Shown piece by piece: positions 27,129-57,061 of a DNA stretch of 64,000 nt. The notes under the pieces were generated by a model, which did no database searches, had not been told where the DNA came from, and saw nothing but the letters and a program-made list of their open reading frames with translations. This DNA comes from an uncultured Clostridium sp. (GTDB taxonomy: Bacteria > Bacillota_I > Bacilli_A > RF39 > UBA660), in NCBI GenBank assembly GCA_905193755.1, contig CAJJPX010000004.1, forward strand, positions 105-64,104. Reading direction: 5' to 3'. Each line of letters starts with the position of its first letter. Position 1 is the stretch's first letter. A program made the translations under genes and the position numbers.

Positions 27129-28370
27129 CTAACTATATTTTTCTATAAATTTACTATGTATATCTTTTAAGTATTCATCTAAATATGTCATGCCTTTATT
27201 ATAAATATTTTTTGGTATTCCATAGTATGCTGCTGCAATACCTCCTACTACTGCTGCTATAGTATCGCTATCTCCGCCTATTGATATAGCATTTCTTATT
27301 GAATCTTCATAATTTGTTGATTCTAAGAAACATACTATTGCCATTATCACTGTATCTATACATTTTATACTTCCCTTTATGCCTGATTTCTTTATATCAT
27401 CAAGTGATTTATCTAGTTTAATGTAATTGTTTTCAATATAGTATTTTATATATCCTTTTGTTTTATTTTGAAGAGCTAGATGTATGGCCATGCATACAAT
27501 TTCAGCACCCATCAAACTTTCTTCGTGATTATGAGAAACATTAGTTACGATTTTGCATACTTCTTTTATAGTTTCTTCATCTTTAAATGCTACTGGTATA
27601 GCGCTTACTCTCATAGCTGCTCCATTAGCATAACTACCATATGGTTTATGATCAGTAGTTAGCCATCTTAGAAAACCTGAACCATATCCACAATTTGGAT
27701 ATTTAAGACCTACATTAACCATATCGTTTATAACTAATTCTTCGAAAGTATCAATACTCTTATATTCTAATAATGCTTTTGCTACTGCAAATGTCATAAC
27801 TGTATCATCAGTAAATTCATCTCTAGGATCAAAGAATTCAAATTTTTTACTTTTAAAACCACTAAATTCATATATAGAACCTACTATGTCTCCTATAGCA
27901 GTTCCCATTACAACATCTCTTATGTTTTTATCTATTTTATCATCATCATTTATCATATCAGCTAATGCTTTTTTCCAGTTAGTAAATATTTCTATTGGTT
28001 TTCTTTCACTTGTTAAATATTTTTCTAGATATGGTTTATACTTATCATATAATCTTTTATCAACTGAAAGTCCATTACCAAATCCCATATAAATATATTG
28101 ATATTTTCCTTGATAGTTTTCATTTTTACAATTTTTCCTGGTTTCATACCATTTAGGAAAAACTTTTATAGCATCCTTTAACAATATTGAATCTTCTGTT
28201 CTTTCACCATACATCCAGCCATCTACTCTATAAAGAATGAATGTATTATTTTCTTTCATAACAAATGATATTCCATCTTCATCCCACATTCTTCCGGGAT
28301 TAGTTATGAACATTAAATTATCTTCATTTAATTTTAAAAATTCTTCTTTTGTTATTGTATTTGCTATCAT
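27129..28370 (-). CDS. ADP-ribosylglycohydrolase (ARH/DraG family) with an unassigned N-terminal domain of about 150 aa
   Basis: ARH signatures VMGTAIGDIVGSIYEF, FTDDTVMT and GGDSDTIAAVVGGIAAAYYGIP. Residues 1 to about 150 have no match I can name. Confidence 0.85.
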   Translation of the reverse strand: MIANTITKEEFLKLNEDNLMFITNPGRMWDEDGISFVMKENNTFILYRVDGWMYGERTEDSILLKDAIKVFPKWYETRKNCKNENYQGKYQYIYMGFGNGLSVDKRLYDKYKPYLEKYLTSERKPIEIFTNWKKALADMINDDDKIDKNIRDVVMGTAIGDIVGSIYEFSGFKSKKFEFFDPRDEFTDDTVMTFAVAKALLEYKSIDTFEELVINDMVNVGLKYPNCGYGSGFLRWLTTDHKPYGSYANGAAMRVSAIPVAFKDEETIKEVCKIVTNVSHNHEESLMGAEIVCMAIHLALQNKTKGYIKYYIENNYIKLDKSLDDIKKSGIKGSIKCIDTVIMAIVCFLESTNYEDSIRNAISIGGDSDTIAAVVGGIAAAYYGIPKNIYNKGMTYLDEYLKDIHSKFIEKYS

Positions 28371-28405
28371 TATTTATTCTCCTTTAGAATGTAATCTGTG
28401 ATTTT

Positions 28406-30154
28406 TTAATCTGCTGTCCATCTAGCTTCGAAATCAGATACGTCACATTTTAGATTTGACATTAAATTATTATATGTTTCCATTCCACCTGGTAGCATTT
28501 TCATTGCATTTAATGTTAATGATACACTACTTCTAATATCAGTTAAGCTCTTTTTTGCTTTAATCCAGTTTTGTGGACTAAATACTTTATTACCAGTTTG
28601 TGGTTCACTTGCTGCGGTTTGAAGTGCAATATTTAAACAATTGCCTGCCATATTGACAACATTTTCTAAAGACCCACTATTTTGTAATTTTTCTAAAGCA
28701 ACTACTGGATTGATAACTACTTCTCCAGGCACTCCATTAGCTACACTGAAAAACAATGAAATTGCATATAAATGATGGTATGGTGCATATGCTTTCATAG
28801 CCAGTAACGATTCATTTAAATCTAAAGGATTTGCTTTTGTCCATTTACTAATAACTTTTTTCCATAAAGTATTTAATGCCATTATTTTTTCAGGTTCATA
28901 ATCTTTTTTAAATAATTGATCAAAATATTTATCAAATATTTTAGTTGGACTATATGCAATATTTGGTCTTTGTGAATGCCATGTCATCAAATATTTTCCT
29001 AGTGCTTCTAGATCAATTGTGTAGTCTTCATCTTTTGATGGCAATCTTGTTTCACCACGTTTAGTCATTAATTGTCCATTGCTATATTTTTGTTCATATG
29101 CTTTTTTCATAGCAAGAACTCTTTTATCATTACTTCTTAAATCTCTTGCTTTAACTGTACTTTGTGAATTAGTATTTGTACTAATCTTATCTCCTGTTGC
29201 TCTATCTGGAACTTCATAGAATCTAAACATTACATAAGCATTGTTTTCTTCTTTTACTTTTTCACTACAAGATAAGATTGTATTTAATGATTGACATCCA
29301 TTGACTACATTAAGCTCTTTTAATGTCAATTTATTATCATTTAATTCCATTTTAGAACATATTGCAGTTATTCCATTATGATAAAAGAAAAAGTTATTAG
29401 GTTCTTCATATATTGATTCTTTAATTCCTTTATTTACTGGATTACTAATTCCAAGAGATTGTCTAACATTTTTCTTAAATAATGTTTGATCCTTTATTCC
29501 GGGAATATTAATGCATTCTTTTAATGGAATTGCAGCCATAATTACTTTAACACCACCAATATTCATTGATATACATTTATCAAGTTCTAAAGTCATTGTA
29601 TGAACTATATTTGGATTTTCTTGGCCAAGTGCTACATCATATCTTCTTTCTAATTCATCTTTATTTATTAGACTAAGTGTTGCTGAAAAATCATCTGATT
29701 TTGCTAATTGTTCTTGAAATACTTTAAGATCTTTTTGGGCGCTTTCTGTTAATTGTGATGGGATAAGTAGTTCAAACTCTATGTCATAATCATCTTCTAA
29801 TCCTCTTGCGACTTCTGATAGTTTTTGTCTTAGTTTCTCATTTGCATTTTCTTGTAATTTAACTATATTTTTTAATTGTATCCATGATGATAATACTTCT
29901 CTCAATGGTTCTGCATCTATCAGTTTTTCTCTATAAAATTTTCCTTGAATAATATGTATTATTGAATTAATTTCATCAATATAAATAGCATCGAATTGTT
30001 TGTCATTTGGGCCATCTGTAATACAATATTTTGCTTCATTTTCATCTAAATTATAAATATTTCTTAAATACCATGCAACGAACCTTTGCCCATCGTTTGG
30101 ATAATTATTTATATAATAATTATTTTTTATTTCATTTTCTATTTTTTCTATCAT
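28406..30154 (-). CDS. AIPR-family (abortive-infection phage-resistance) protein
   Basis: N-terminal nuclease-like block DGPNDKQFDAIYIDE...IIHIIQGKF, central YHNGITAI...VVNGCQSLNT, and a long helical C-terminus, as in the AIPR family. Confidence 0.8.
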   Translation of the reverse strand: MIEKIENEIKNNYYINNYPNDGQRFVAWYLRNIYNLDENEAKYCITDGPNDKQFDAIYIDEINSIIHIIQGKFYREKLIDAEPLREVLSSWIQLKNIVKLQENANEKLRQKLSEVARGLEDDYDIEFELLIPSQLTESAQKDLKVFQEQLAKSDDFSATLSLINKDELERRYDVALGQENPNIVHTMTLELDKCISMNIGGVKVIMAAIPLKECINIPGIKDQTLFKKNVRQSLGISNPVNKGIKESIYEEPNNFFFYHNGITAICSKMELNDNKLTLKELNVVNGCQSLNTILSCSEKVKEENNAYVMFRFYEVPDRATGDKISTNTNSQSTVKARDLRSNDKRVLAMKKAYEQKYSNGQLMTKRGETRLPSKDEDYTIDLEALGKYLMTWHSQRPNIAYSPTKIFDKYFDQLFKKDYEPEKIMALNTLWKKVISKWTKANPLDLNESLLAMKAYAPYHHLYAISLFFSVANGVPGEVVINPVVALEKLQNSGSLENVVNMAGNCLNIALQTAASEPQTGNKVFSPQNWIKAKKSLTDIRSSVSLTLNAMKMLPGGMETYNNLMSNLKCDVSDFEARWTAD

Positions 30155-30186
30155 TCTTGATACTCCTTTTTTCTTTTATATATATT

Positions 30187-30195
30187 ATTATATCA
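30187..30195 (-). promoter_or_regulatory. extended -10 element (TGATATAAT) upstream of the AIPR gene
   Basis: On the minus strand, TG-N-TATAAT lies about 33 nt upstream of the ATG, followed by SD AAGGAG. Confidence 0.45.
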
Positions 30196-30236
30196 CAATT
30201 AATTTAGTAAATATTTTTATTACTAAACTGAGCGAG

Positions 30237-30650
30237 TTATTTACTAATTATCTCAATCGTTGTTTTATCTCTTTTGCCATTATAAAATTTATCTATTACT
30301 TTTGAAAATATTTTTTCTTCTGGAAATGCATATTCAAATAGAGTCATACTTGAATTTAATTTTAAATAATCTGGATATCCCATTATATATTTAATATCTC
30401 CATCTTGTTTTAGTAGTTCATCACATATTTCTAACATATTATTTTTTAGATAAGAGTTACTCATATATTCTTTTGCTTCTTCTATTCCATCTAAACCATA
30501 GAATTTTGAAGTTAAACTTCTACCTAATTCTTTTAATTGTGGGAATATATACCACATCCAATGGCTTCTTTTATAACCATTTTTTATTTCTTGTAATGCA
30601 GTTTCATAGTATTCTTTATGCATTTCTATAAATCTATCTATATTATACAT
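30237..30650 (-). CDS. DUF1810-family protein
   Basis: Signature KRSHWMWYIFPQLKELGRS...GIEEAKEYM. The start is taken at MYNIDRF (30650). Confidence 0.8.
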   Translation of the reverse strand: MYNIDRFIEMHKEYYETALQEIKNGYKRSHWMWYIFPQLKELGRSLTSKFYGLDGIEEAKEYMSNSYLKNNMLEICDELLKQDGDIKYIMGYPDYLKLNSSMTLFEYAFPEEKIFSKVIDKFYNGKRDKTTIEIISK

Positions 30651-30652
30651 AA

Positions 30653-30826
30653 CTACCACCCATACCATTGATCAACGTCTGGATCTTCTGGACTATATTT
30701 ATTAACACATACTTCTTCCCCGTCATCACCATAATAACATTCTTGGTATGTTCTTCCACCTGCTGATGTTGAAGTGCATCCAATACATAACATCATAACT
30801 AATAAAAGTATAAATAGCTTTTTCAT
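30653..30826 (-). CDS. small putative lipoprotein (57 aa), absent from the ORF track
   Basis: My translation is MKKLFILLLVMMLCIGCTSTSAGGRTYQECYYGDDGEEVCVNKYSPEDPDVDQWYGW. SD GAGAGG lies 7 nt upstream. It has a K-K n-region, a hydrophobic core and a lipobox-like LCIGC. Its stop is 2 nt before the DUF1810 ATG. Confidence 0.5.
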   Translation of the reverse strand: MKKLFILLLVMMLCIGCTSTSAGGRTYQECYYGDDGEEVCVNKYSPEDPDVDQWYGW

Positions 30827-30844
30827 ATATTAACCTCTCACTTA

Positions 30845-33082
30845 TTACTGTTTATTATAACATATTTCTTTTATTTCATTAATAAAAACACTTTGCTTAG
30901 TTTCATCTTTATTAACAAGTAAATATACTTTATTCTTAGTTCTAGTAAGCGCTACATAGAATAATCTTCTTTCTTCAGCATAAGGTATTTTTTCTATAAC
31001 ACTCGGATATTTAAATAATGAATTAATCCAGTATGTGTCTTTATCACTAGATGGAAAACTTTTGTTAAGACCTATTACTATTACTTCATCAAATGTTAGT
31101 CCTTTAGATTTATGAATAGTCATTCCTTCTAATTCTATATCTTCATAACCAACAAATGATATTTTAGTACCAAGTTCATCTGTTAGATAATCAGTATCAA
31201 AGCATTTATTTATAATAGCATTCGTTCTTCCTAAAACTAGTATGTTATGATTAGGATTGTTCTTATAAATATCAAGTATTATTTCTTTTAGTTTGTCATA
31301 TTCGTGATCATTATCAAAGTATATGAATTCTATAGGCTTATCTATATGTTTATTTGAAATTAAATATTTCTTTATTTGATCTGGATTTCTCATTACAAAC
31401 TCACCAGATACATTTAGAAGTTCTTGACTATTTCTATAGGTTCTACTGATTCTAAATATTACTGCATCTTTAAAATATTTTTTAAAGTTGTATGTATATT
31501 CTATTCTTGAACCACTAAATGAATATATACTTTGCCAATCATCTCCAACTGCATATATCTTTGCATGATTTCTTTCGAGTGTCTTTCTTGCTAATTCATA
31601 TTTATATTGAGATATATCTTGATACTCATCAATTATTATATATTCAAAATTCAAATCATTATTTATGCCTATATTTTCTATATATTTATTTGCATAATAA
31701 AGTAAGTCAGAATAATCAAATTTATATACTTCAGAACCATATAACACACTTTGATAATAAACATAAAATTCATTAAAATAAATATATTCTTTTTTAGCTT
31801 CTTCTTTTTCATCAGTTAATGTTTCTATATAATTTTTAATAATGCTTTTATAATTTTCTCTGTTAACTGATTCTTTTATTACGTTCACTATTTCATAGAA
31901 GAAGTTCTTAAATGGATACATTATTGATAGTTTGTTATTATCAAGTATTCTTTCATATATTTCTTCATCAGTTCTAGGTTTATACTTAATACCAAATTCT
32001 TTCAATTTTTTATCTAATTCATTTTCTATATTTTCTAGTGGTACTTTATCTAATTCTATAAATTTATTATTATGTTCTTTATGAAATTTTATTTTTTGTT
32101 CTTTATTTTTATTATATTTTTCATCATCTAATCCAAAGTATTCTATATATATTTCTTCTCCGCCTATATCTATGGTAAAGTCTGGCTTATATATTTTTTT
32201 GTCATCCATAAGTTCAGTATATATTTTTTCATATGAATAGATTATTCCTATTTTATATAGAAAATTTGCAATTACTGCTTCTGATGCAGACTTTACATAT
32301 TCACCTTGTATAGTGATTATATCTTCATTATTGATTTTTCTCTCTATCCAATTATCTATGAATTCTTTGAGACCGATTGAAGTGTTTCTTGCTTCTTCTA
32401 TTTTATATTTTTTATATTCTTTTATTAGTTGTTCAAATGTATCATATTTTTCATAGTTTTGTAAGAACCATTTACTAAATACCCAAGACATACCTGTCCT
32501 ATTTATGTTAAATGTATTTATTATATCTTTTAACTTATTTTTGTCTTTAAAAATCATGCTAAAATAATTAAAGAATATTTCTTCTTTGTCATTATAATCT
32601 ATTACAGTGCATTTTCTATTACTGAATATGTTTCTAATGTATTCATATCCTAAGGAATGAAATGTTGTTATGTGTGCTGGTATATTGAAATCTACTAGTA
32701 TTCTCTTTTCTAGTTCCTCAGTAGCCTTTTTAGTATAACTCATTACTAATATTTTTGAAGGTTCTACTTTTTTAATGTCAACTAAATATTTTACTTTAGC
32801 TGTCATTGTTGTCGTCTTTCCTGTTCCAGCCCCTGCAATTATTAAAGCACTATCTTCATCACTTAGTATTGCTTTTATTTGTTCATCATCAAGTAATATG
32901 TTATCATCTATTCCCTTAAACATATTTTGAAAATAATCTTTGTATTTTTCTTTTATAGTTTCTAATACTTTATTGTTATGTTCTTCTATATTAAAACTTT
33001 GATATTCAGCTTTTACTAATTCATATATTCTATTTGATATATATTCATTATTCTTTATTTTATTTAAAAATTCCTCTCTCAT
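30845..33082 (-). CDS. UvrD/Rep (helicase IV-like) SF1 helicase with embedded PD-(D/E)xK-like module
   Basis: Walker A AGAGTGKTTT, motif II IIIDEYQDIS, then RTYRNSQE, TIHKSKGLTFDEV and FYVALTRTKNKVYLL. The insert at about aa 255-345 reads SASEAVIANFLYKIGIIYSYE...YKPDFTIDIGGEEIYIEYFG. Confidence 0.85.
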   Translation of the reverse strand: MREEFLNKIKNNEYISNRIYELVKAEYQSFNIEEHNNKVLETIKEKYKDYFQNMFKGIDDNILLDDEQIKAILSDEDSALIIAGAGTGKTTTMTAKVKYLVDIKKVEPSKILVMSYTKKATEELEKRILVDFNIPAHITTFHSLGYEYIRNIFSNRKCTVIDYNDKEEIFFNYFSMIFKDKNKLKDIINTFNINRTGMSWVFSKWFLQNYEKYDTFEQLIKEYKKYKIEEARNTSIGLKEFIDNWIERKINNEDIITIQGEYVKSASEAVIANFLYKIGIIYSYEKIYTELMDDKKIYKPDFTIDIGGEEIYIEYFGLDDEKYNKNKEQKIKFHKEHNNKFIELDKVPLENIENELDKKLKEFGIKYKPRTDEEIYERILDNNKLSIMYPFKNFFYEIVNVIKESVNRENYKSIIKNYIETLTDEKEEAKKEYIYFNEFYVYYQSVLYGSEVYKFDYSDLLYYANKYIENIGINNDLNFEYIIIDEYQDISQYKYELARKTLERNHAKIYAVGDDWQSIYSFSGSRIEYTYNFKKYFKDAVIFRISRTYRNSQELLNVSGEFVMRNPDQIKKYLISNKHIDKPIEFIYFDNDHEYDKLKEIILDIYKNNPNHNILVLGRTNAIINKCFDTDYLTDELGTKISFVGYEDIELEGMTIHKSKGLTFDEVIVIGLNKSFPSSDKDTYWINSLFKYPSVIEKIPYAEERRLFYVALTRTKNKVYLLVNKDETKQSVFINEIKEICYNKQ

Positions 33083-33204
33083 AACAGCACCCTACTATAA
33101 ATAGATTATAACAAAATCATAGTTTGTTTACCAGTACTATAAATAAAAATATAATGGATATAAAAACACTAATATATGATTTTATACTATTGTTCCTTTT
33201 AATT

Positions 33205-34047
33205 TTATTTTTTAAATAGTTCTTCTACAATTAAATCTTTTGAATGTAAGTTATTATTTTTTCCTAACAATAAATTTTCATAAAATTTAATTAAGAAACT
33301 ATTATCTTCTTTTATATTTAAATCATTATTAAAGTAGTTACTTCTTACTAAAGCGTTTCTAAAATATACCGATTTTTCTTTGAACATTGTGTTGTTAACA
33401 GAATATCCTAGTGATACTAAATATTTTTCTATGAATAATGCCGTAGTTCTAGTATTGCCTTCTCTAAAAGGGTGGATTTGCCATATGTTTGAAGAAAAGT
33501 TAGCTATATTATTAATTACATCAACTATATTCATTTCTTCATATTTTTTACTTTTTTCTAATGATATATCATAATCTAGTGATTGTTCTAATAACTTGTA
33601 ATCTCCATATGCTACTGAATCATTATTTAAAATTATTTCAGACTTTGAAAAATTTATTTTTCTAAACTCACCTGCAAACTCATAAACATCTTGAAATAAA
33701 AACTTATGAACATATTTTAAAAAGTCAATTGATAAATTAAAATTATCTTTATTTAATAGTTCAACTATTCTAGTGGATACAAAATCACATTCTAATTCAT
33801 TATGATCCACATTATTTTTACTTTCTTTCTCTGAATAATATTCTTTCAATTCTTTTTCAACTTCTTCAATTGTTAAATTGCCTTCCACTTCTTTTTCTAT
33901 TAGTTTTTCAAGATATTTAGATGGCTTTAAATTATCAACTTCTTGAAGTCCAATAGCCATATCCCATTGCAATTGTTTAACATAATTACTAGAATTATAT
34001 TCTTCTTTGTATTCATTAACACTTGAATCTAATTCTTCTTCGTACAC
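33205..34047 (-). CDS. Fic-family protein
   Basis: Fic motif HPFREGNTRTTA, a variant of HxFx(D/E)GNGRxxR. Confidence 0.85.
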   Translation of the reverse strand: MYEEELDSSVNEYKEEYNSSNYVKQLQWDMAIGLQEVDNLKPSKYLEKLIEKEVEGNLTIEEVEKELKEYYSEKESKNNVDHNELECDFVSTRIVELLNKDNFNLSIDFLKYVHKFLFQDVYEFAGEFRKINFSKSEIILNNDSVAYGDYKLLEQSLDYDISLEKSKKYEEMNIVDVINNIANFSSNIWQIHPFREGNTRTTALFIEKYLVSLGYSVNNTMFKEKSVYFRNALVRSNYFNNDLNIKEDNSFLIKFYENLLLGKNNNLHSKDLIVEELFKK

Positions 34048-34250
34048 TTTGTCACCTCCGTTGATAATATTATAACTTATTTTTTTTTGCTTGTCAGTAT
34101 TACTGACATAAAATATAACTTCGTTGTAAGCCGAAAAATATTTTTATTTTTGCTTCAAAGATATGATACATTTAAAATATTTGTAAAATACCACTTACTA
34201 TATTTTTATTATCTATTAATAATGTTATAATGCAGTTAGAGGAGATAGCT

Positions 34251-35063
34251 ATGAAAAAGAAAAAATATTTATTAATGTTAATTGTTTCATGTTTGTTATT
34301 ATCAGGATGTGGAAAAGAAAATACTAAAATGCTTGAAGGAATCAGTATTGAAGAAGGATGTTATGTTAATGAGAAAGATTCAGAACATCTAATGTGTTTC
34401 ACTGATAGTTCTTCAATGGATAGCGTTCTTTATAAAGATGGTATTTATTATAACGATAAATATTATCATACAACAATGCCTACTGAAAAAGAAAATTATT
34501 CTTATACTTTTAAAGTAGATGAAGGCGTAATCACTGTAACTTATTATAAAGACTCTAGTATACTTTATGGACAAGTTTGTACAGCAGCTTCTAATGATTC
34601 TATGAACTGTAATGAAATTGCTAATGTAACTGGAGAAACTGAAAATAATGAAGTCACTTATAAAAAGGTAGATAAAGAATTTAATAAAGACATTATTAAT
34701 AATTTACCTATTTATGAAAGAGATAGAGAATTTGAATTAAACTTCAATGGAACAAAAATAACTTGTAATATCACTAGAAATTACTCTATACTTGAAAAAG
34801 CTAGTGGTTCAGTAATTCAAGATTGTTTAAGTAATTATTATAATGAATTATATACTTGTACGCAATTAGATAAAACTGATAAATGGCAAATATATTCAGT
34901 AAGTGAAGTTAAGCAATATAGTGCTTCTGACTATACAAGTTATGTGATAAATAACTATAGCTATAATGTAACAGTGAATGAAACTAAATTTAGATATGTA
35001 GATGCTTTTCCTATAAATCCAATTACTTCTAAAGATAAAATGATTGTAAATATAACTAAGTAA
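34251..35063 (+). CDS. lipoprotein, function unknown
   Basis: MKKKKYLLMLIVSCLLLSGCGKEN has a lipobox LLSGC. SD GAGGAG and an extended -10 TGTTATAAT (34223-34231) lie upstream. Confidence 0.7.
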   Translation: MKKKKYLLMLIVSCLLLSGCGKENTKMLEGISIEEGCYVNEKDSEHLMCFTDSSSMDSVLYKDGIYYNDKYYHTTMPTEKENYSYTFKVDEGVITVTYYKDSSILYGQVCTAASNDSMNCNEIANVTGETENNEVTYKKVDKEFNKDIINNLPIYERDREFELNFNGTKITCNITRNYSILEKASGSVIQDCLSNYYNELYTCTQLDKTDKWQIYSVSEVKQYSASDYTSYVINNYSYNVTVNETKFRYVDAFPINPITSKDKMIVNITK

Positions 35064-35531
35064 TAAACACTAAATTATTCCCTTAACAATTTTTTCAATG
35101 CATTTCATTATTTCTTTACATGTTTATTTGAATAACTTCTATATTTCTTTCATTTTTAATCATAAAATTCATAATTTCACTTCTTTGTACATTCATACGG
35201 ACATTTTATGATTTATCCGTATGATAGTCAATGACATATAAACTGAAAAGTTAAAGATTTTTAGTTTAATTGTTAGAAATCAAATATTTTTAATTTAAGA
35301 ATTTTTAAGACTTCTTCTTAATAAGATTTGAAAAAAAAGAGAATTTGTGCTCGCTTAATAAAACTATTAATATTATTTTTATTTATTTATTTAAATACTG
35401 CTTCAAAATTAATTAATCTATTTTTGTAAAGTCCCCTAATGATGAAAAAGTATCCAAGAGAATTTACTATATTCCGATTCATAAATGTCATCTTTAATTC
35501 TTACATTAATGTGATATGTGTCCATGGTAAT

Positions 35532-35556
35532 TGTGCAACTGGTTGCACATTTTTTT
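35532..35556 (+). terminator. orphan terminator-like hairpin in the 613-nt gap
   Basis: TGTGCAA-CTGG-TTGCACA followed by T7. No convincing plus-strand gene or promoter lies upstream. Confidence 0.35.
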
Positions 35557-35676
35557 ATGATTAACATTAAAACTCATAAAAAATCCTGCCTCTATTGATT
35601 GTGTTTCATCTGATAAATATGAAATTATTTTTGTTAAGCAATATGTTAATTGTTCTGATGTACTCATTTAAATCTT

Positions 35677-36519
35677 CTATACTGCTACTGGCATTAATAT
35701 TTCTATAAATTCTTCTAAACATTTTATAGTTTCTTCGAATTCAAGATTTTTAGCATAGCTATTCTTTCTAGAATAGTTTGTCCATTTATCTCTTAATATC
35801 TTACTATTTTTAACTACATTTAAGTTCGTAATTAGATCTGCATTAAACTCTCTTTTTTTAAAAGTTTTTTCAACTGCACCTCTAAATTTAGTTTTATTAA
35901 TTTTATTAAATTTGAATTTATGAATTAAGTAAATATCATAATAATCTTTCATTCTACTGCTTGCATCTAACTTACTTAGTATACTTTCCATTTTTTCAGC
36001 AAGTACTGTTTCTAAATTATATGACCATACATTATATACTTCGTTTCCTATTAACGATTCATATTTATAATCATCTGGACCTGGATATATTGGATCCCCT
36101 GTTGCTATATCGATATGAAAACTATCTCTCATATTTTCTAACATAAATTTTATCGTAATTCTTAATCCACCATACTCATCTTCATCACGAATTGGTTCTG
36201 TTTTTTTAATTTCAAATTTAACATTATCATCTACATCTATATTTAAAATTTTTGTTATCATTTTAATAATATTTTCTTCAGTAAATTTTGTTTTTCTTAT
36301 TGCAGTATCAATATCCATGGTACTTCTATTGTCTAGGCCAAATAATTTACTCAAATAGAAACCACCTTTTAATATAAAGTTATCTCTATATTTACTTTTT
36401 GATAAGCGCTCAATAAATCTATCATACATGTAGAACCTCATAATAGAGTTAAAATCTATATTTTTTTCTTTAGAAATATTTCTAAGTTTATCCTTTACTG
36501 CTTGTGCGGAATTACTCAT
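35677..36519 (-). CDS. AbiEii/AbiGii-family nucleotidyltransferase toxin (type IV TA)
   Basis: N-terminus AVKDKLRNISKEKNIDFNSIMRFYMYDRFIERL and NTase motif LKGGFYLSKLFGLDNRSTMDIDTAI. It overlaps the upstream AbiEi gene by 8 nt. Confidence 0.8.
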   Translation of the reverse strand: MSNSAQAVKDKLRNISKEKNIDFNSIMRFYMYDRFIERLSKSKYRDNFILKGGFYLSKLFGLDNRSTMDIDTAIRKTKFTEENIIKMITKILNIDVDDNVKFEIKKTEPIRDEDEYGGLRITIKFMLENMRDSFHIDIATGDPIYPGPDDYKYESLIGNEVYNVWSYNLETVLAEKMESILSKLDASSRMKDYYDIYLIHKFKFNKINKTKFRGAVEKTFKKREFNADLITNLNVVKNSKILRDKWTNYSRKNSYAKNLEFEETIKCLEEFIEILMPVAV

Positions 36520-37441
36520 AATATATACCTACCATTTCCATTACTTTTTCACTTATTCCCATTCTCATTGCATAATCAGATAGCTTCGCAATATTTTTAT
36601 CACTTCTTTTAGTATATTGTTTAATGGATTTTTTTACTTGTTCAGGATCCATTCTACTTTTTGACCTTATAATATCACAAATACATCTTTCTTTATCATA
36701 TGCTCTGACTTTATTTCCACTTGGCGTCTCAATTTCAACAATACCTATTTCATATATATCTTCTGAAACATAAAATACATTGCATTTTTCATTTACAGTG
36801 TCAACATGATAATTTTGAGGAACTGTTACTGTATAGTTATATGGATACTCTTCAGTCATCCCATAAAAATATAGTGCATTCATATGTGAAAAAATCGCTT
36901 TTTTATATTTTTGTTGGAAAGAAAAATAACTATCTTCAAATGCATTTGGTGAAATATAAATACCTCTTGAAACTTTTTCAATATCATTATTATTTTCCAT
37001 AATTGAAAGATATTGTCTACTTATATTTAGTGGTTCTATCATTCTCGTAGAAAGCATTCCATTATTTGTATTCATTATTTGCTTTATAGTATCTGTATAT
37101 ATTTTTGCTTGTTTGTTTGGATATTTAATTGATAGGTCTTTTATTGCATTTGACATGACAGCAATATTTTTTAGTTCTTCTTGCATTGGCTTTGCAAGTT
37201 GACTAAGTTGTTCGCCTAGTTGTCTAACTGGTTTAAATGATTCAGAAATGGCTTTACTAGCTTCTGCAAGTGGTTTCATAGTCTCTTTAAGCGTTTTACT
37301 TAGTTCATTCACTGGTATTGTTATTTGACTAAGTTGTTCCTTAATTTGATTCATTGGTTCTTTCATTGAATTAATTGCTTCTACATAATTTTTAAGAACA
37401 TCATCATCAATTTTATAACTTATTTTTTTCTCTTCTTTCAT
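36512..37441 (-). CDS. AbiEi-family antitoxin/transcriptional regulator with a repeat-containing N-terminal extension of about 115 aa
   Basis: AbiEi-like wHTH region LSTRMIEPLNISRQYLSIMENNNDIEKVSRGIYISPN plus the C-terminal domain. Positioned upstream of AbiEii. The extension is described in the findings. Confidence 0.7.
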   Translation of the reverse strand: MKEEKKISYKIDDDVLKNYVEAINSMKEPMNQIKEQLSQITIPVNELSKTLKETMKPLAEASKAISESFKPVRQLGEQLSQLAKPMQEELKNIAVMSNAIKDLSIKYPNKQAKIYTDTIKQIMNTNNGMLSTRMIEPLNISRQYLSIMENNNDIEKVSRGIYISPNAFEDSYFSFQQKYKKAIFSHMNALYFYGMTEEYPYNYTVTVPQNYHVDTVNEKCNVFYVSEDIYEIGIVEIETPSGNKVRAYDKERCICDIIRSKSRMDPEQVKKSIKQYTKRSDKNIAKLSDYAMRMGISEKVMEMVGIYYE

Positions 37442-37461
37442 ATTAAATCTCTTTTCCTTCC

Positions 37462-37509
37462 TTTGACAATTACACCGAGATTATAACATTTTTCAGTTTT
37501 ATTGTCAAA
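37462..37509 (-). promoter_or_regulatory. consensus sigma-A promoter of the abiE operon bracketed by a 9-bp inverted repeat (probable operator)
   Basis: On the minus strand: TTGACA (37508-37503), 17 nt, TGTTATAAT (-10 at 37485-37480). The perfect inverted repeat TTTGACAAT / ATTGTCAAA occupies 37462-37470 and 37501-37509. Confidence 0.65.
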
Positions 37510-37570
37510 TATTAATTTCAATTTATTTTTATTTTAATATCTAACTAACTATTATTACATTTCTATGTAT

Positions 37571-37596
37571 AAAAAAAAACGAGAGCTCACGCTCTC
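37571..37596 (-). terminator. strong intrinsic terminator
   Basis: On the minus strand, GAGAGC-GTGA-GCTCTC followed by G plus T9. Confidence 0.8.
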
Positions 37597-37663
37597 TTCA
37601 GGGGGTTTTGGTTGAACATCCATATTTTGAATCGTATGGATATTCTTGACATATTTCTATGTC
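37571..37663 (-). ncRNA. candidate small RNA of about 90 nt (or the 3'UTR of the HAD gene)
   Basis: TTGACA-18 nt-TATAAT (37699-37670) upstream, a 7-bp hairpin (37641-37618), an unpaired CAAAACCCCCUGAAG tract (37610-37596), then a GC-rich terminator. No SD-preceded ORF. Confidence 0.35.
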
Positions 37664-37717
37664 ATTATCATTATATAATGTTTTAGACTTTTTTGTCAAT
37701 TGAATATTTTTAAATTT

Positions 37718-38281
37718 TTAATTTTTACTATTATTTTGGATATAATTATAAAGTTCATTCCAAGAGTTTACCCTGTCTGAAGAAGTTTCTCTTTCTTTAT
37801 TTAATCTTGATGTAAAGACAGCTCCTTTGATGTTGCTTTTATTTAAGGATTCTATTGTATCTATGCCATCATCAAACATAAAATTTATTCCTTCATCTTT
37901 ACATATTTGAAGTTTATATGTTTGTGCTGTTATGATTTTATCATAGTTTATATCATTCTTTTTTAAGAAATCTTCTACATATTTATGTGCATCTTCGAAG
38001 TATGTATTACTTCTAGCAGTTATAAAATATATTTTATTTCCTTCACTTCTTAGTTTGTCTATTATTTCTTTAGCATCTTCTTTAATAGTAGCGTTATCAC
38101 AAATATTTCTTGCATTCTTACCGAAAAAATCTTTTAGTTCAGGTGTATCTAATGTACCTCTTATTAGTTTGTAATGATCTATTTTTGTTTCTGGATGTTC
38201 ACTCTCATATTTAATAACATACTCTTCACTAGCTTCATTTGTATTAGTAAGAGTATCATCTATATCTATACCTATATTCAC
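37718..38281 (-). CDS. HAD-superfamily hydrolase (nucleotidase-like)
   Basis: Motif I IGIDIDDTLT, motif II ITARS, and the C-terminal Asp pair FMFDDG. Confidence 0.7.
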   Translation of the reverse strand: MNIGIDIDDTLTNTNEASEEYVIKYESEHPETKIDHYKLIRGTLDTPELKDFFGKNARNICDNATIKEDAKEIIDKLRSEGNKIYFITARSNTYFEDAHKYVEDFLKKNDINYDKIITAQTYKLQICKDEGINFMFDDGIDTIESLNKSNIKGAVFTSRLNKERETSSDRVNSWNELYNYIQNNSKN

Positions 38282-38337: not shown

Positions 38338-39042
38338 TTATTTTTTTAATAGCCTTAATGCTTGCTTAAATTCCCCTACTGTTTCGACTGGTTCTTTTAT
38401 TTCTTTTTCTGCTTCTTCTGCTAAAATCTCTAATAGACTACTGCTTCTAAGTCTTCCATATGCGCCACATCTTCTTACATATTCAGTTAATTGTTCATTT
38501 TTAAAGTTATCATTACCTACGAACTGTGCGATTATAGTAGCCGCTAACTCTTTTAGATTTCTTTTATACATACTACTAAAATCATCATCTGATGTTACAT
38601 CATAAAGATCAGTATCTACTGCTTTAATTTTTTTATCAGGTGTATATATTAAATTTTCTTGATTCAAATCATTAAATAATAAACCTTGTGTAGTTAAATT
38701 TAACATTTCTCTTTCAAATTCATTTAATGCTCTTACGAAGTCTCTTAACATAGTAGCATCTTCCAAGGTTTTAATAGGTGTTCCTTCTATATATTTCATT
38801 AAGTATCCTCTTAATGATTTTCTTTCTTCTTCAAGTAAGAATATAAACTCTTCAGGGAATGCAAAATGTTCACTTTGATAATAAGCTAGTGCATCAAGTT
38901 CTATTATATATTTATATTCTTCTGGATATTCTTTAAATACTTTTCCAAAATCAGTTAAATAACAAGTTGCACTACACCCATTATTTAATCTTCTATGATA
39001 ATAACCTTCTGGTATTTGTGTAAATATTCTCTCTTTTCTCAT
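38338..39042 (-). CDS. putative protein-kinase-like fold protein (APH/Kdo-kinase-like)
   Basis: GCSATCYLTDFGKVFKEY (Gly-loop/Lys-like), catalytic-loop-like LLFNDLNQENLIY and DFG-like KAVDTDL. Weak call. Confidence 0.4.
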   Translation of the reverse strand: MRKERIFTQIPEGYYHRRLNNGCSATCYLTDFGKVFKEYPEEYKYIIELDALAYYQSEHFAFPEEFIFLLEEERKSLRGYLMKYIEGTPIKTLEDATMLRDFVRALNEFEREMLNLTTQGLLFNDLNQENLIYTPDKKIKAVDTDLYDVTSDDDFSSMYKRNLKELAATIIAQFVGNDNFKNEQLTEYVRRCGAYGRLRSSSLLEILAEEAEKEIKEPVETVGEFKQALRLLKK

Positions 39043-40494: not shown

Positions 40495-41374
40495 CTACTT
40501 TACTAACAAATATTTCATTTAAAGTTGGTTCTTCAACAACGAATTTAGTTACATTATTATACTTAGATATTGCTTTAAATAAATTATTAACATAAGATTC
40601 ATCTTCTAATCTAATAGTGTACTCATCTTTATTTTTTTCTATTCCTTCTACACCTTTTACTTTAAGTATTTCTTTTTCATCTAAAGATGCTTGTACTTTT
40701 ACATTTTTCTTTCTGAAGTCTTTCTTTATTTTAGTTAGTTTACCTTCTAAGACTGTATTTCCTTTTACAAGAATTATTAATGAGTCACAGAAGTATTCTA
40801 TGTGTTCCATCATATGTGATGAGAATATAATCATAGTACCTTTCTTTTTAAGTCTTAGTATTTCTTTTTTGAACATTTCTACGTTTATTGGATCTAATCC
40901 ACTAAACGGTTCATCTAGTATAAGAAGTTTTGGTTCATGAATTATACTTATTATGAATTGTATTTTTTGTTGATTACCTTTTGATAGTTCTTTTATCTTT
41001 TTATTTTTATAATCTGTTATACCAAATTCTTCTAAGTATTTATCTAATCTTTCTTCTACTTCTTTTTCAGTTAGTCCTTTTAGTACTCCATAGAATATAG
41101 CTTGTTCTAATACTGTTTTTGATGGTAATAAACTTCTTTCTTCTGTTAAGAAACCTATTTCATCTGATACGCTATAGTCTATTTTTTTACCATTAAGTGT
41201 AATATTTCCTTCTGTTTTATCAAGAAGTCCCATAATCATTCTGAATGTTGTTGTTTTACCAGCACCATTAACACCTAATAGACCAAATATTTCTCCTTCT
41301 TTTACTTCAAATGAAAGGTCGTTTACTGCTCTAAAGTCATCATAGTATTTTGTTACGTGTTCTACTTTTAACAT
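40475..41374 (-). CDS. ABC transporter ATP-binding protein (NatA-like)
   Basis: Walker A GVNGAGKTTT, signature LSKGNQQKI, Walker B LLILDEPFSGLD, H-loop SSHMM. Confidence 0.9.
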   Translation of the reverse strand: MLKVEHVTKYYDDFRAVNDLSFEVKEGEIFGLLGVNGAGKTTTFRMIMGLLDKTEGNITLNGKKIDYSVSDEIGFLTEERSLLPSKTVLEQAIFYGVLKGLTEKEVEERLDKYLEEFGITDYKNKKIKELSKGNQQKIQFIISIIHEPKLLILDEPFSGLDPINVEMFKKEILRLKKKGTMIIFSSHMMEHIEYFCDSLIILVKGNTVLEGKLTKIKKDFRKKNVKVQASLDEKEILKVKGVEGIEKNKDEYTIRLEDESYVNNLFKAISKYNNVTKFVVEEPTLNEIFVSKVGEVYEK

Positions 41375-55037: not shown

Positions 55038-57061
55038 TACATTTTTCCTTTAGCTTTTTTAATCATTGCAAGTGAATCATTAATAGCATCATCTATAGTA
55101 GTTTGTTCATTTGTTATCATTGAATAACCAATTGATGCACTATAATCTTTATTTGGTAGTGATGAATTTAGTTCACGATTTAATTTATGTATGTAAGAAC
55201 CTACTTTCTTTTCATCATATCCTATTAAATATATAATAAATTCATCTCCATCAGTTCTCATTATTTCTGAATTGTCTCTTTGTGTTTTTATAAGTACACT
55301 TGCAACTGCTTTGATTTGATTATCTCCTGCTTCATGACCATATTTATCATTTAAAGTTTTTAATGCATTAATATCTATTACTATTATTGCTTGAGGATAT
55401 ACTTTATTTGAACTCCAAAAATCAATATTATCATTTAAGTAATTTCTATTTTTTAAGTTAGTCATCGCATCAAAGTAATATAATCTATCTTCTTTTTTAG
55501 TTTTTTTAGTATATAAAGCTTTTTTAACAACTCCATATATTATGAATGCTATTATTAGTATGGCTATTGTTATCCATATTAAATTACTCATTATAAAGTT
55601 AAATACTCTATTATTTTTAAGTGTTTCTATTACACCTACTACACTTTCATTTTTAACTTCACTTGAGCTTAATGTACTTAGATAGAAATCAAATAATTTA
55701 TTGAATGCTTTGTTATCACTATTAAGCAAGAATGAGTTATTTAATTTAACCTTATCAATATATCTTATACTATAATTTTTAAGTTCTCTATCTTTGTAGT
55801 AGTCGTACACTTCTTTTTCTATTATTATTACTGAAGACTTATCAATATTTTTAAGCATAGTTTTAACATTAACATAATCTTTTATTTCAAATAAATTTTT
55901 ACTAGCCATATTATATTTTAAATTCATATTTGATAACATAGTAACTTCAGTATTATTTAGTGTATAAAGTGAATTCACTACTAAATTATTATCTACATGA
56001 GCAATTACTACATATTCAGTTGGACCTAATGTTCTACTACTTGTATAGTTCTTATTTCCAAGTGAATAATAATTTAATGCTAAATCTATTTTTTTGTTTT
56101 CTAATGCTTCACCTAGTTTTTTAGTGTCACTATATTTAATATATTTATATGTTACACCTGTCATATCAGCGAATTTAGATAAATATGTATCTGTAAGTCC
56201 AGTGAAGTTTCTTCTAATCATACCTTCGTATGGAAGATTTTCAATGTATCCTACTATTAAATCATCATTTGTTATTGATTCTTTTTCTATTTCAGTATAA
56301 TTCTTCGTAGTATAATATATATCTAAAAAATATTCATTTAGTTTTTTAGTTGCAGTTTTTTCCCATCTATAATAAAATTTACTAAATATATTTGAAAGCA
56401 TTTCATTATTTTCAGGTAAATCCAAACAATAATATGAATATAATCCATCTACATGAAATATAATTTCATAGTCATTTTTAACTATTTCATCTAAATATTT
56501 ATACATTGGTATAATCATATAATCTAAAGAATTGCTTGTATAATCTGATTCTAGTTGTTCGAATGTTGTATAACTTTTTATATTAATATTTTGATATTCT
56601 GTTAGATATGTTTCAACTGTTTCTTTATCTTTACTAATAACGCCAATTGTTCTATTTGATAAGTCTGATAGTTTATTAACACTTTCTTTTTTTCCTATAA
56701 CGACATAATGATCTTTGTATATTACTATATCTTCTGGATCTGGTGAAGTTTTATTATTTAGTTTTACTTCTGTACTATCAGAAGTGGCTACTTCTATAGA
56801 TAGACCTGTTGTTTCTTTTAATGATTTTAAATATTCATAATATACACCTTTTCCATTATCTGAAAATACTGGTAAACCATTTTCTACGTATACATCTAGT
56901 GTTGTATCTTTATTATCATTTATCCATTTCTTTTCAGAATATGAATAGTTATTTACTGTGCTTGTTATATAGTATAGTGTTGCAAAGAACCCAACTACTA
57001 AAAATAATATTATAGTAAAGGCTATTATGATATTTTTTCTTTTTTTACTTCTATTCTTCAT
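55037..57061 (-). CDS. membrane sensor with two periplasmic SBP-like domains and a C-terminal GGDEF-family domain (motif DGDEF)
   Basis: FDAMTNLKNRNYL, IDINALKTLNDKYGHEAGDNQIK, RTDGDEFIIYL, SASIGYS. Confidence 0.8.
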   Translation of the reverse strand: MKNRSKKRKNIIIAFTIILFLVVGFFATLYYITSTVNNYSYSEKKWINDNKDTTLDVYVENGLPVFSDNGKGVYYEYLKSLKETTGLSIEVATSDSTEVKLNNKTSPDPEDIVIYKDHYVVIGKKESVNKLSDLSNRTIGVISKDKETVETYLTEYQNINIKSYTTFEQLESDYTSNSLDYMIIPMYKYLDEIVKNDYEIIFHVDGLYSYYCLDLPENNEMLSNIFSKFYYRWEKTATKKLNEYFLDIYYTTKNYTEIEKESITNDDLIVGYIENLPYEGMIRRNFTGLTDTYLSKFADMTGVTYKYIKYSDTKKLGEALENKKIDLALNYYSLGNKNYTSSRTLGPTEYVVIAHVDNNLVVNSLYTLNNTEVTMLSNMNLKYNMASKNLFEIKDYVNVKTMLKNIDKSSVIIIEKEVYDYYKDRELKNYSIRYIDKVKLNNSFLLNSDNKAFNKLFDFYLSTLSSSEVKNESVVGVIETLKNNRVFNFIMSNLIWITIAILIIAFIIYGVVKKALYTKKTKKEDRLYYFDAMTNLKNRNYLNDNIDFWSSNKVYPQAIIVIDINALKTLNDKYGHEAGDNQIKAVASVLIKTQRDNSEIMRTDGDEFIIYLIGYDEKKVGSYIHKLNRELNSSLPNKDYSASIGYSMITNEQTTIDDAINDSLAMIKKAKGKM

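What the first reader, a model, noticed from the sequence alone, without database searches (positions are those of the whole stretch)
37571..37699. Promoter - hairpin - C-rich tract - terminator module: candidate small RNA next to the AbiE operon
On the minus strand, 19 nt after the HAD stop, there is TTGACA (37699-37694), 18 nt, then TATAAT (37675-37670). Downstream of the predicted start (about 37663) lie a 7-bp hairpin AUCCAUA-N10-UAUGGAU (37641-37618) and a single-stranded CAAAACCCCCUGAAG tract (37610-37596). The window's strongest intrinsic terminator follows (GAGAGC-GUGA-GCUCUC plus U9). Unpaired C-runs are how Firmicute sRNAs such as RsaE/RoxS pair with G-rich Shine-Dalgarno sequences. 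G-run SDs exist in this window, for example UGGGGGUU before the gene starting at 1856. The only coding potential is a 21-codon ORF without an SD. The module sits directly upstream of the abiE promoter. The alternative is that it is merely the 3'UTR and terminator of the HAD gene, with a chance promoter match in AT-rich DNA.
Basis: partly seen in the sequence, partly recalled or inferred. Interest (0 to 1): 0.6.

Follow-up and report, generated by a model that had tools for sequence, protein, structure and literature searches.

The report
Conserved small RNA doubling as island docking site
The flagged stretch is a real, previously undescribed ~93-nt non-coding RNA gene found in nearly all members of an uncultured order of small-genome gut bacteria, and mobile defence islands and prophages insert at its 3' end, much as they do at tRNA genes.

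Summary
Comparative data show it is a genuine gene, not a HAD 3'UTR with a chance promoter.

- **Distribution.** A covariance model finds one copy in 43/50 species of the genus and 244/301 genomes (111/127 genera) of the order. It finds none in about 220 genomes of other orders of the class. Rfam 15 and the literature search have nothing.
- **Conserved features.** The promoter TTGACN-17/18-TANNNT is kept in 71/76 unique loci. Two hairpins covary strongly. CAACCAAAACCCCCUGA is invariant and predicted unpaired. A terminator always follows, and no reading frame is conserved.
- **New result: attachment site.** The last ~31 nt (CCCCCUGAAG plus terminator) act as an attachment site. Five relatives repeat them 5-14 kb downstream. 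Tyrosine integrases lie only downstream and convergent. Identical terminators and island edges sit on divergent RNA bodies.
- **AbiE link.** The AbiE operon "next to" the RNA is cargo of such an island, now without an integrase.
- **Function.** The RsaE/RoxS-like idea (C-run pairing with G-rich Shine-Dalgarno sites) is plausible but unproven. I found no enrichment at start sites, no conserved target, and no rRNA, tmRNA, SRP or recG pairing.

The parts
37694..37699 (-). -35 hexamer TTGACA of the sRNA promoter
   Evidence: TTGAC is invariant in 20 genus loci. TTGACN-17/18-TANNNT is present in 71/76 unique loci from many genera.
37670..37675 (-). -10 hexamer TATAAT, 18-nt spacer; predicted +1 near 37663
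   Evidence: The start site is inferred from promoter geometry only. No transcript data could be obtained.
37571..37663 (-). predicted ~93-nt non-coding sRNA (HP1, HP2, single-stranded tract, terminator)
   Evidence: Fold z = -6.2. The covariance model matches at 86.9 bits. No reading frame is conserved. Homologues are 87-124 nt long.
37648..37663 (-). HP1: 6-bp stem with GNRA tetraloop (GACAUA-GAAA-UAUGUC)
   Evidence: Compensatory changes occur in 4/6 pairs within the genus and 6/6 across genera. The loop is GAAA, GAGA, GCGA or GCAA within the genus.
37614..37645 (-). HP2: 11-bp stem (GAAUAUCCAUA / UAUGGAUGUUC) with conserved apical UACGA...GUG motif
   Evidence: The stem is 97% paired in the genus, and 5/10 pairs show double changes.
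37598..37614 (-). invariant tract CAACCAAAACCCCCUGA, predicted single-stranded
   Evidence: It is identical in all 24 genus sequences and in all cross-genus model matches shown. The exact 17-mer occurs in 119+ named MAG records. Unpaired probability is a median 0.88 for the tract and 0.98 for the C-run in 68 homologues.
37571..37596 (-). intrinsic terminator (GAGAGC-GUGA-GCUCUC, G, U9)
   Evidence: A hairpin plus T-run follows in 66/66 loci. The stem sequence is highly variable and is shared between unrelated genera.
37571..37605 (-). att core region: CCCCCUGAAG + terminator + T-run (the part repeated at the far end of islands in relatives and supplied by the inserted element)
   Evidence: Direct repeats lie 5-14 kb downstream in G011, G007, G026, G002 and G010. 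Homology of relatives to the window stops at 37569-37573. Mosaic 3' ends are seen.
27129..37570 (-). variable DNA inserted downstream of the sRNA: AbiEi (36512-37441), AbiEii (35677-36519), Fic (33205-34047), UvrD-like helicase (30845-33082), DUF1810, AIPR (28406-30154), ADP-ribosylglycohydrolase (27129-28370). No integrase and no distal repeat are left.
Evidence: Pfam gives the gene identities. There is no PF00589 hit on this contig. There is no second att copy.

Best explanation
Window 37663-37571 (minus strand) is a stand-alone gene for a ~93-nt non-coding RNA.

**Anatomy.** A near-consensus sigma-70-type promoter drives it. The RNA forms two 5' hairpins: HP1 with a GNRA loop starting at +1, and HP2 with a conserved UACGA apex. 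It then exposes an invariant unpaired tract, CAACCAAAACCCCCUGA, and ends at an intrinsic terminator.

**Distribution.** It is a single-copy, lineage-specific RNA of one order of uncultured, small-genome gut Bacilli. Their records are labelled 'Bacilli', 'Tenericutes', 'Mollicutes' or 'Mycoplasma sp.', and they look RF39-like (the RF39 name is my inference).

**Shown by comparison.**
- The RNA-level structure, promoter and terminator are conserved.
- The last ~31 nt of the gene (from the C-run through the terminator) are the chromosomal attachment site for tyrosine-integrase elements: integrative mobilizable islands and at least one temperate phage.
- These elements insert there, bring their own copy of the 3' end, and so rebuild the gene.
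- In the window this has left a defence island (AbiE, Fic, AIPR and others) that has lost its integrase.

**Inferred, not shown.** The RNA acts in trans through the exposed C-rich tract by pairing with G-rich sequences. AGGGGG-type Shine-Dalgarno regions are the most likely targets. CCCCCU pairs with them better than the canonical 16S CCUCCU does, which would block translation as RsaE/RoxS and streptococcal csRNAs do. The 5' hairpin would protect the RNA from 5' exonucleases.
For: **Gene reality**
- The fold has z = -6.2.
- In the 24-species alignment, 95% of cells are paired against 29-47% when partners are slid. 12/20 pairs have compensatory changes, and 0/500 shuffles reach this.
- In the 70-sequence cross-genus alignment, 93% are paired and 15/17 pairs are compensatory.
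- The promoter is present in 71/76 loci and a T-run terminator in 66/66. No reading frame is conserved.
- The unit keeps its form whether recG or HAD lies upstream.

**Distribution**
- It is found in 43/50 species of the genus (20/22 high-quality genomes).
- It is found in 244/301 genomes of the order, 111/127 genera, nearly always as one copy.
- All 18 matches among 251 genomes sampled from the class lie in the window's own family; none of ~220 from other families matches.

**Attachment site**
- Direct repeats of CCCCCUGAAG plus terminator lie 5-14 kb downstream.
- Between the repeats lie tyrosine integrases, a Mob_Pre relaxase, an S24 repressor, and restriction-modification, AbiE, RT-protease, Fic and HEPN cargo.
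- Integrases occur only downstream, always convergent, often 90-270 nt from the tract.
- A phage arm directly follows the RNA in L243.
- Seven locus pairs have >= 93% identical terminator plus island edge on bodies only 52-71% alike.
- Homology to the window ends at 37569-37573.

**Tract exposure and pairing logic**
- The tract is predicted unpaired in 68/68 homologues.
- The 16S anti-SD is canonical CACCUCCUUUCU.
- 39 of 1350 ORFs have GGGGG-type SDs, and the top predicted duplexes (-19.5 to -20.3 kcal/mol) sit on such SDs.
- The host-derived half of the tract (CAACCAAAA, upstream of the att core) is also invariant, so element-driven homogenisation cannot explain it.
Against: The +1 site, the RNA's abundance and even its expression are therefore inferred.

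**No statistical support for the pairing mechanism**
- 36 start regions pair at <= -14 kcal/mol, against 7-32 for ten shuffled seeds and 34 for the reversed seed.
- No second conserved complementary site exists in 60 genera; counts equal the reversed-pattern control.
- The best sites in other genera precede non-orthologous genes or lie inside coding sequence.
- GGGGG-SD genes share no functional theme.

**Other cautions**
- An invariant 17-mer over more than 100 genera is more than a typical mRNA seed needs. It fits a protein or other fixed partner at least as well.
- Part of the tract (CCCCCUGA) lies in the att core, where integrase recognition and horizontal replacement also favour constancy.
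- In the window itself the att evidence is indirect: there is no integrase and no distal repeat.
Confidence: 0.55

Rival explanations
1. The RNA is real, but it works as the RNA part of a ribonucleoprotein or as a protein sponge. The invariant tract, together with the conserved HP2 apex, would be a sequence-specific protein-binding site. A KH-type or other C-rich-binding protein is one possibility. It would not be an antisense seed.
For: - The tract is 100% invariant across more than 100 genera while both stems drift.
- Its near-universal, single-copy, near-consensus-promoter profile resembles housekeeping RNAs.
- No conserved RNA target could be found.
- A second conserved element (UACGA...GUG at the HP2 apex) has no obvious pairing role.
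Against: No candidate protein was identified, and none is encoded in conserved linkage. recG upstream is the only syntenic gene, and it is unlinked in the window's genus. Unpaired C-runs next to a terminator are the classic layout of Firmicute base-pairing sRNAs (PMC6158497, PMC5419742).
Confidence: 0.28
2. The RNA is, or also serves as, a trans-acting antitoxin or regulator of small hydrophobic type-I-toxin-like peptides. Some of their 5' UTRs carry CUCUUCAGGGGG.
For: - CUUCAGGGGG occurs twice outside the gene against 0.1 expected. Both copies lie in the 5' UTRs of tiny hydrophobic ORFs, and one gives a perfect 16-nt duplex.
- The module is multi-copy in about half of the genus.
- The small RNAs of a related four-copy module family carry the same CCCCUGA motif in a hairpin loop.
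Against: - The G-run is one arm of a local hairpin that covaries away in paralogues (CUCU..GGGG to CUG..CAG). About half of the close homologues lack the complement.
- The two hits are paralogues, so they count as one event.
- The modules carry what looks like their own convergent RNA partner.
- The sRNA is present in many genomes without detectable modules.
Confidence: 0.07
3. Only the DNA matters. The conserved block would be an integration or recombination site maintained by the mobile elements, and the 'RNA' would be incidental.
For: The 3' part of the tract and the terminator lie in the att core and are supplied by the elements. Contigs of many MAGs break right there.
Against: - Compensatory changes in two helices upstream of the att core show selection on RNA pairing.
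- A near-consensus promoter sits at a fixed distance in 71/76 loci.
- The host-derived CAACCAAAA is invariant.
- Elements typically target functional RNA genes precisely because those genes are conserved (PMC4383910).
Confidence: 0.05
4. One reading: this is merely the 3' UTR and terminator of the HAD gene, with a chance promoter match in AT-rich DNA. A related version is a cis-regulatory leader of the downstream gene.
For: Only 18 nt separate the HAD stop from the -35, and no other terminator follows HAD. Promoter-like matches in general are at chance level here.
Against: - The unit is conserved with its promoter behind a different gene (recG) in most genera.
- Conservation of the unit is higher than that of the HAD 3' coding end.
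- The downstream DNA is unrelated between species, so it cannot be a leader.
Confidence: 0.03
5. It encodes a small protein, the 21-codon ORF at 37652-37587.
For: The ORF exists.
Against: It has no SD. Among 76 unique homologues the tract is read in frame 0, 1, 2 or not at all in roughly equal numbers (19, 20, 16 and 23 loci; four loci count in two frames). Substitutions follow base-pairing, not codons.
Confidence: 0.01

Closest known systems
RsaE / RoxS (Rfam RF01820), C-rich-seed sRNAs of Bacillales
   Same: Both are about 100 nt long, with several hairpins and a Rho-independent terminator. Both have an unpaired C-run that could pair with G-rich SD regions, and both are conserved over a wide group of low-GC Gram-positives (PMC6158497, PMC5419742).
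   Different: There is no sequence or structure match to the Rfam model, even at E <= 10. It has one C-run instead of several C-rich regions. It occurs only in a different order. No targets or regulators are known. Its 17-nt invariance is far stricter.
Streptococcal csRNAs (CiaR-dependent small RNAs)
   Same: Both have hairpins flanking an unpaired stretch that reads, 5' to 3', anti-start then anti-SD. Here CAA...CCCCCU would face AGGGGG-N6-UUG. The comparison rests on my own knowledge of the family.
   Different: No CiaR-type direct repeat is visible at the promoter. The anti-SD is CCCCCU rather than CCUCCU. There is one copy per genome, not a paralogous family.
tRNA / tmRNA genes as attB for genomic islands (Islander model, PMC4383910); ffs (4.5S RNA) as attB of phage phiEf11 (PMC12540744)
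   Same: A tyrosine integrase sits next to the 3' end of a conserved RNA gene. The island restores the gene's 3' end, and a displaced 3' fragment marks the far end. The site is a hotspot for defence cargo and prophages.
   Different: The target is neither a tRNA, a tmRNA nor the SRP RNA. It is a lineage-specific regulatory-type sRNA. The part replaced includes its whole terminator and part of its conserved single-stranded tract.

Membership tests
RsaE/RoxS (RF01820) or any Rfam 15 family | Significant match to the family covariance model | tested here: not met
   There are 0 matches at gathering score in the 64-kb window. There are 0 matches at E <= 10 in 37400-37800 with permissive filters.
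RsaE/RoxS (RF01820) | Several C-rich regions (CCCC) in loops and linkers | tested here: not met
   There is a single C5 run in the linker. The HP1 and HP2 loops are A/U-rich.
RsaE/RoxS (RF01820) | Experimentally shown pairing with SD regions of metabolic mRNAs | not testable with these tools
   In-silico scans gave no enrichment and no conserved target.
Independent bacterial sRNA gene (promoter-to-intrinsic-terminator unit) | Own promoter and terminator conserved at fixed positions, independent of flanking genes | tested here: met
   The promoter is present in 71/76 loci and the terminator in 66/66. The upstream gene differs between genera.
Independent bacterial sRNA gene | Conserved secondary structure with compensatory changes; no coding potential | tested here: met
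   Searches show the covariation. One search shows that no frame is conserved.
Independent bacterial sRNA gene | Detected primary transcript of the predicted size | not testable with these tools
RNA-gene attB of tyrosine-integrase elements (Islander type) | Tyrosine integrase gene adjacent to the 3' end of the target gene | tested here: met
   It is met in relatives. PF00589 proteins occur in L030, L031 and L032. About 19 loci have a convergent integrase downstream and none has one upstream. It is not met in the window itself.
RNA-gene attB of tyrosine-integrase elements (Islander type) | Displaced copy of the target's 3' fragment as a direct repeat at the far island end | tested here: met
   It is met in five relatives, with 31-35-nt repeats 5-14 kb away on the same strand. 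It is absent in the window.
RNA-gene attB of tyrosine-integrase elements (Islander type) | Element-borne sequence restores the 3' end of the gene | tested here: met
   Identical terminators and island edges sit on divergent RNA bodies in 7 locus pairs. All occupied sites keep an intact terminator.
RNA-gene attB of tyrosine-integrase elements (Islander type) | Target is a tRNA or tmRNA gene | tested here: not met
   ARAGORN finds no tRNA or tmRNA in the window. The tmRNA is on contig C3 and the SRP RNA on C7.
RNA-gene attB of tyrosine-integrase elements (Islander type) | Demonstrated integration and excision | not testable with these tools
   This needs a recombination assay.
Type I toxin-antitoxin antitoxin RNA | Encoded next to, or overlapping, a small hydrophobic toxin ORF and complementary to its mRNA | tested here: not met
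   No such ORF lies at the locus. Complementarity to distant toxin-like leaders is not conserved among paralogues.
csRNA (CiaR regulon) | CiaR binding repeat (TTTAAG-N5-TTTAAG, from my own knowledge) at the promoter | tested here: not met
   It is not visible upstream of or over the -35 in the window sequence.

The most novel reading that the evidence does not exclude
The RNA is a new lineage-specific housekeeping RNA of this gut order. Its invariant 17-mer would be read by a fixed cellular partner. That partner could be a dedicated protein. It could also be the translation machinery, with the RNA acting as an anti-SD look-alike that tunes the GGGGG-SD subset of mRNAs. Mobile elements would exploit it exactly as they exploit tRNA and tmRNA genes, continually re-supplying its terminator and part of its active tract.
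Probability: 0.2. Interest if true: 0.8.

Novelty: new member of a known kind. Interest (0 to 1): 0.6.

Why it matters
These bacteria are common in human and animal guts, have reduced genomes of about 0.6-1.8 Mb, and are essentially uncultured. Almost nothing is known about their RNA biology. The finding matters in three ways.

1. It adds a well-supported RNA family that is missing from Rfam, with a ready covariance model and a strikingly invariant 17-nt element to explain.
2. It gives a simple anchor for finding defence islands, mobilizable elements and prophages in these fragmented assemblies: look just 3' of this RNA. Many contigs break exactly there.
3. It extends the rule that islands dock at the 3' ends of conserved RNA genes from tRNA, tmRNA and 4.5S RNA to a regulatory-type small RNA. 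It also provides natural integrase/attB pairs that could serve as genetic tools for this lineage.

Tried and rejected
1. **Rfam.** Scans of the window and of the locus at E <= 10 found nothing.
2. **tRNA/tmRNA.** ARAGORN found none in the window.
3. **Divergent SRP RNA.** Rejected, because a normal SRP RNA is on contig C7 and in relatives. The tmRNA is also elsewhere.
5. **Single-genome target prediction.** I used a duplexfold scan of the whole genome and of 1350 start regions. There was no enrichment over shuffled or reversed seeds.
6. **Toxin-like leaders with CUUCAGGGGG.** The motif is not conserved among paralogues.
7. **Conserved complementary site.** A pattern allowing G-U pairs and 3 mismatches, run over 60 genera, hit only the gene itself above control level. 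Twenty of the best sites were fetched. They showed no orthology, and many lay inside coding sequence.
8. **rRNA pairing.** The best duplex in two closed genomes was -17.8 kcal/mol, weaker than the mean for shuffled seeds.
9. **Stable RNAs.** tmRNA and SRP RNA showed nothing. tRNA-Ala(UGC) gave -22 against about -16 for shuffles, but the site lies in a folded region, so I kept it only as a weak lead.
10. **recG start region.** recG is the syntenic neighbour, but its start region is no target: mean -6.5 against -7.5 for shuffles over 36 genera.
11. **Integrase remnant or distal att repeat in the window.** None was found. Flanks beyond attR in relatives have no match in the window, so the far island boundary could not be fixed by homology.
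12. **Viral-contig scan with the att core.** 25 of 28 hits were chance matches in unrelated phages, and 3 were true.
13. **Literature.** The sequence is in no searchable paper. No sRNA work on this lineage turned up.

Full report
**1. The observation**

- TTGACA lies at 37699-37694 and TATAAT at 37675-37670, 18 nt apart.
- The AUCCAUA/UAUGGAU hairpin, the C-rich tract, the GAGAGC-GUGA-GCUCUC + U9 terminator and a 21-codon ORF are all present.
- The G-run SD before the gene starting at 1856 is also real.

Two refinements apply. The hairpin is part of an 11-bp helix (HP2). A further 5' hairpin with a GAAA tetraloop (HP1, 37663-37648) begins at the predicted start site.

The 93-nt RNA folds at -29 kcal/mol, z = -6.2, and leaves the tract unpaired. 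Promoter-like matches as a class are at chance level in this AT-rich DNA: 28 found against 26.4 in shuffles. The hexamers alone therefore prove nothing.

**2. It is a conserved, structured, non-coding RNA gene**

*Copy number and spread in the genus.* The genome is a 1.34-Mb, 26.6% G+C MAG in 34 contigs, and the locus is single-copy in it. BLASTN finds the locus in about 29 of 36 sampled species of the genus at 72-92% identity.

*Pattern of conservation.* The -35 and -10 are fixed. HP1 and HP2 vary by compensated changes. CAACCAAAACCCCCUGA is identical in every sequence. The terminator stem varies. Similarity stops dead after the T-run. The HAD 3' coding end upstream is less conserved than the RNA.

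*Formal pair counts.* On 24 species, 95% of cells are paired against 29-47% when the 3' partners are slid. 12 of 20 pairs have double changes, and 0 of 500 shuffles reach this.

*Wider distribution.* A covariance model of HP1 + HP2 + tract (R1) gave the following.

| Search | Result |
|---|---|
| Genus | 43/50 species; 20/22 high-quality genomes |
| Order | 244/301 genomes; 111/127 genera; almost always one copy |
| Class (251 genomes) | 18 matches, all in the window's own family; none in ~220 genomes of other families |

*Cross-genus structure.* In a 70-sequence alignment, 93% of cells are paired and 15/17 pairs have compensatory changes. This alignment is model-fitted, which flatters the count somewhat.

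*Architecture over 76 unique loci.*
- TTGACN-17/18-TANNNT is present in 71.
- A hairpin plus T-run is present in 66/66.
- The tract is read in all three frames, or none, about equally, so there is no coding potential.

*Other properties.*
- Homologues are 87-124 nt long, and the tract is predicted unpaired in all 68 tested.
- Carriers of the exact 17-mer are uncultured gut 'Bacilli', 'Tenericutes', 'Mollicutes' or 'Mycoplasma sp.' MAGs from human, rabbit, goat, sheep and mouse.
- Rfam 15 has no match, and the sequence occurs in no searchable paper.

*Synteny.* In most genera the upstream gene is a recG-like helicase on the same strand (61/88 loci). In the window's genus recG lies on another contig and a HAD/NT5C gene is upstream. 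The unit therefore moves with its own promoter, which excludes the '3' UTR of HAD' reading.

**3. The unexpected part: the 3' end is an attachment site**

Many MAG contigs end at or just after the tract. The last ~31-35 nt of the RNA recur 5-14 kb downstream on the same strand in five species. These repeats start exactly at the C-run (CCCCCUGAAG + terminator + T-run).

*What lies between the repeats.*
- Tyrosine integrases (PF00589 with arm-binding domains)
- A Mob_Pre relaxase and an S24 repressor
- Defence cargo: LlaJI, type I and BpuSI restriction-modification systems, AbiEi/AbiEii, an RT-protease fusion, Fic and HEPN

*Further support.*
- Across about 85 loci from many genera, integrase homologues occur only downstream of the RNA. 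They are always convergent with it and often lie 90-270 nt from the tract. About a third of loci with >= 1.5 kb of downstream sequence have one.
- One IMG/VR contig shows a temperate-phage arm directly after the RNA, with integrase, CI-like repressor, SSB, exonuclease and RusA-type genes. Two others show decayed islands with Fic or AbiE and only integrase fragments.
- Seven locus pairs have >= 93% identical terminator plus island edge joined to RNA bodies that are only 52-71% alike. A shared edge motif (...TTTATTTATAAGGGTTTG...) follows the terminator in 34/66 loci.

This is the tRNA/tmRNA pattern. The element carries a copy of the target's 3' end, rebuilds the gene on insertion, and displaces the old fragment to the far end (PMC4383910). 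The ffs 4.5S RNA gene is a recent non-tRNA precedent (PMC12540744).

*The window itself.*
- Homology of relatives stops at 37569-37573.
- What follows is AbiEi/AbiEii, Fic, a UvrD-like helicase, DUF1810, AIPR and an ADP-ribosylglycohydrolase.
- No integrase and no distal repeat are left.

The adjacency to abiE is therefore a consequence of integration, not a regulatory link. Earlier notes of this scan independently called 25.6-37.7 kb a strain-variable defence island without mobility genes. A reader in another genome proposed a similar ~90-nt unit as an integration target. These notes were leads, not evidence.

**4. What the RNA does**

This remains inferred. The exposed CCCCCU would pair perfectly with AGGGGG-type SDs. 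The 16S anti-SD of this lineage is canonical CACCUCCUUUCU. 39 of 1350 ORFs have GGGGG SDs, and the best predicted duplexes sit on such sites. Read 5' to 3', the tract (CAA-CCAAAA-CCCCCU) mirrors SD-spacer-UUG.

None of my tests lifts this above plausibility.
- Start regions show no enrichment over shuffled or reversed seeds.
- No other conserved complementary site exists in 60 genera.
- The best sites in other genera are non-orthologous.
- rRNA, tmRNA and SRP RNA show nothing.
- The recG start region shows nothing.
- A tempting 16-nt match to the leader of a tiny hydrophobic ORF is not conserved among its paralogues.

The strict invariance fits a protein or other fixed partner about as well, so I keep that as a strong rival. 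The upstream half of the tract (CAACCAAAA) lies outside the att core. Its constancy therefore cannot be put down to the mobile elements.

**5. Comparison and verdict**

*How it may work.* It may work like RsaE/RoxS or csRNAs, but it is not a member of either family (see the membership table).

*How its locus behaves.* Its locus behaves like a tRNA/tmRNA attB, but the target is a different kind of RNA gene.

*Classification.* I class it as a new member of known kinds: a new sRNA family and a new RNA-gene attB.

*Confidence.*

| Claim | Confidence |
|---|---|
| The gene is real | about 0.9 |
| Its 3' end is an attachment site | about 0.85 |
| It pairs with G-rich SDs | about 0.35-0.4 |

Noticed in passing
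G000 contig C5:36603-36815 (-) and C1:248233-248446 (+) (loci L179, L204, L300, L301): Multi-copy type-I-toxin-like modules. Each has a structured ~70-nt leader with a sequestered SD, a 27-29-aa hydrophobic ORF (MSKKDLLISVLLIIILILLFIIVLLLF), a hairpin terminator, and a 3' segment complementary to the 5' UTR. There are up to 8 copies per genome, and 25/50 species of the genus have them. No Rfam match.
   Followed up: partly
G000 C1:~56330-56700, C2:~40780-41150, and copies on C15 and C18 (loci L298, L299): A four-copy family of convergent pairs. One partner is a small RNA with a consensus-like promoter and a 5' hairpin whose 7-nt loop reads CCCCUGA, the same motif as the sRNA tract. The other is an opposing tiny hydrophobic ORF (for example MNKKNVLIASLIFIIILLILVILIITIK). 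They share a bidirectional terminator. No Rfam match. Whether the shared motif means a shared partner is open.
   Followed up: partly
just 3' of the sRNA terminator in 34/66 loci (e.g. L069, L097, L134, L057, L089): A conserved island-edge motif (...CCCTTTATTTATAAGGGTTTGTGAG...) is shared across genera. It is probably an arm-type integrase binding site or the element's left end.
   Followed up: no
L028:1434-3125 (+), G011: A 563-aa fusion of a reverse transcriptase (RVT_1) with a trypsin-like protease lies directly downstream of the sRNA, next to a BpuSI-type restriction-modification system. It is a defence-type RT as island cargo, and this island has no integrase.
   Followed up: no
G328 and G241; G013:C4:53308-53354 (+) (L020): Some genomes carry many extra copies of the tract's 3' part. 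G328 has 8 copies of TCAGGGGGTTTTGG followed by AAA, TAA or TAC instead of TTG. G013 has an inverted partial copy 250 nt from the gene. These may be tandem or repeated integrations, or att remnants.
   Followed up: no
G000 C1:210513-210589 (tRNA-Ala UGC) and the tRNA-Val(UAC) called at 35220-35296 by ARAGORN (contig C14 by the site): The anticodon-stem/variable-loop segment CAGGGGGUC of these tRNAs is the best complement to the tract among stable RNAs: -22 kcal/mol against about -16 for shuffled seeds. It lies in a folded region, so its significance is doubtful.
   Followed up: partly
window 38338-39042 (-): A 234-aa protein without any Pfam match lies between the HAD gene and an ABC-2 permease. 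Homologues sit upstream of the sRNA in four related loci (e.g. L100).
   Followed up: no
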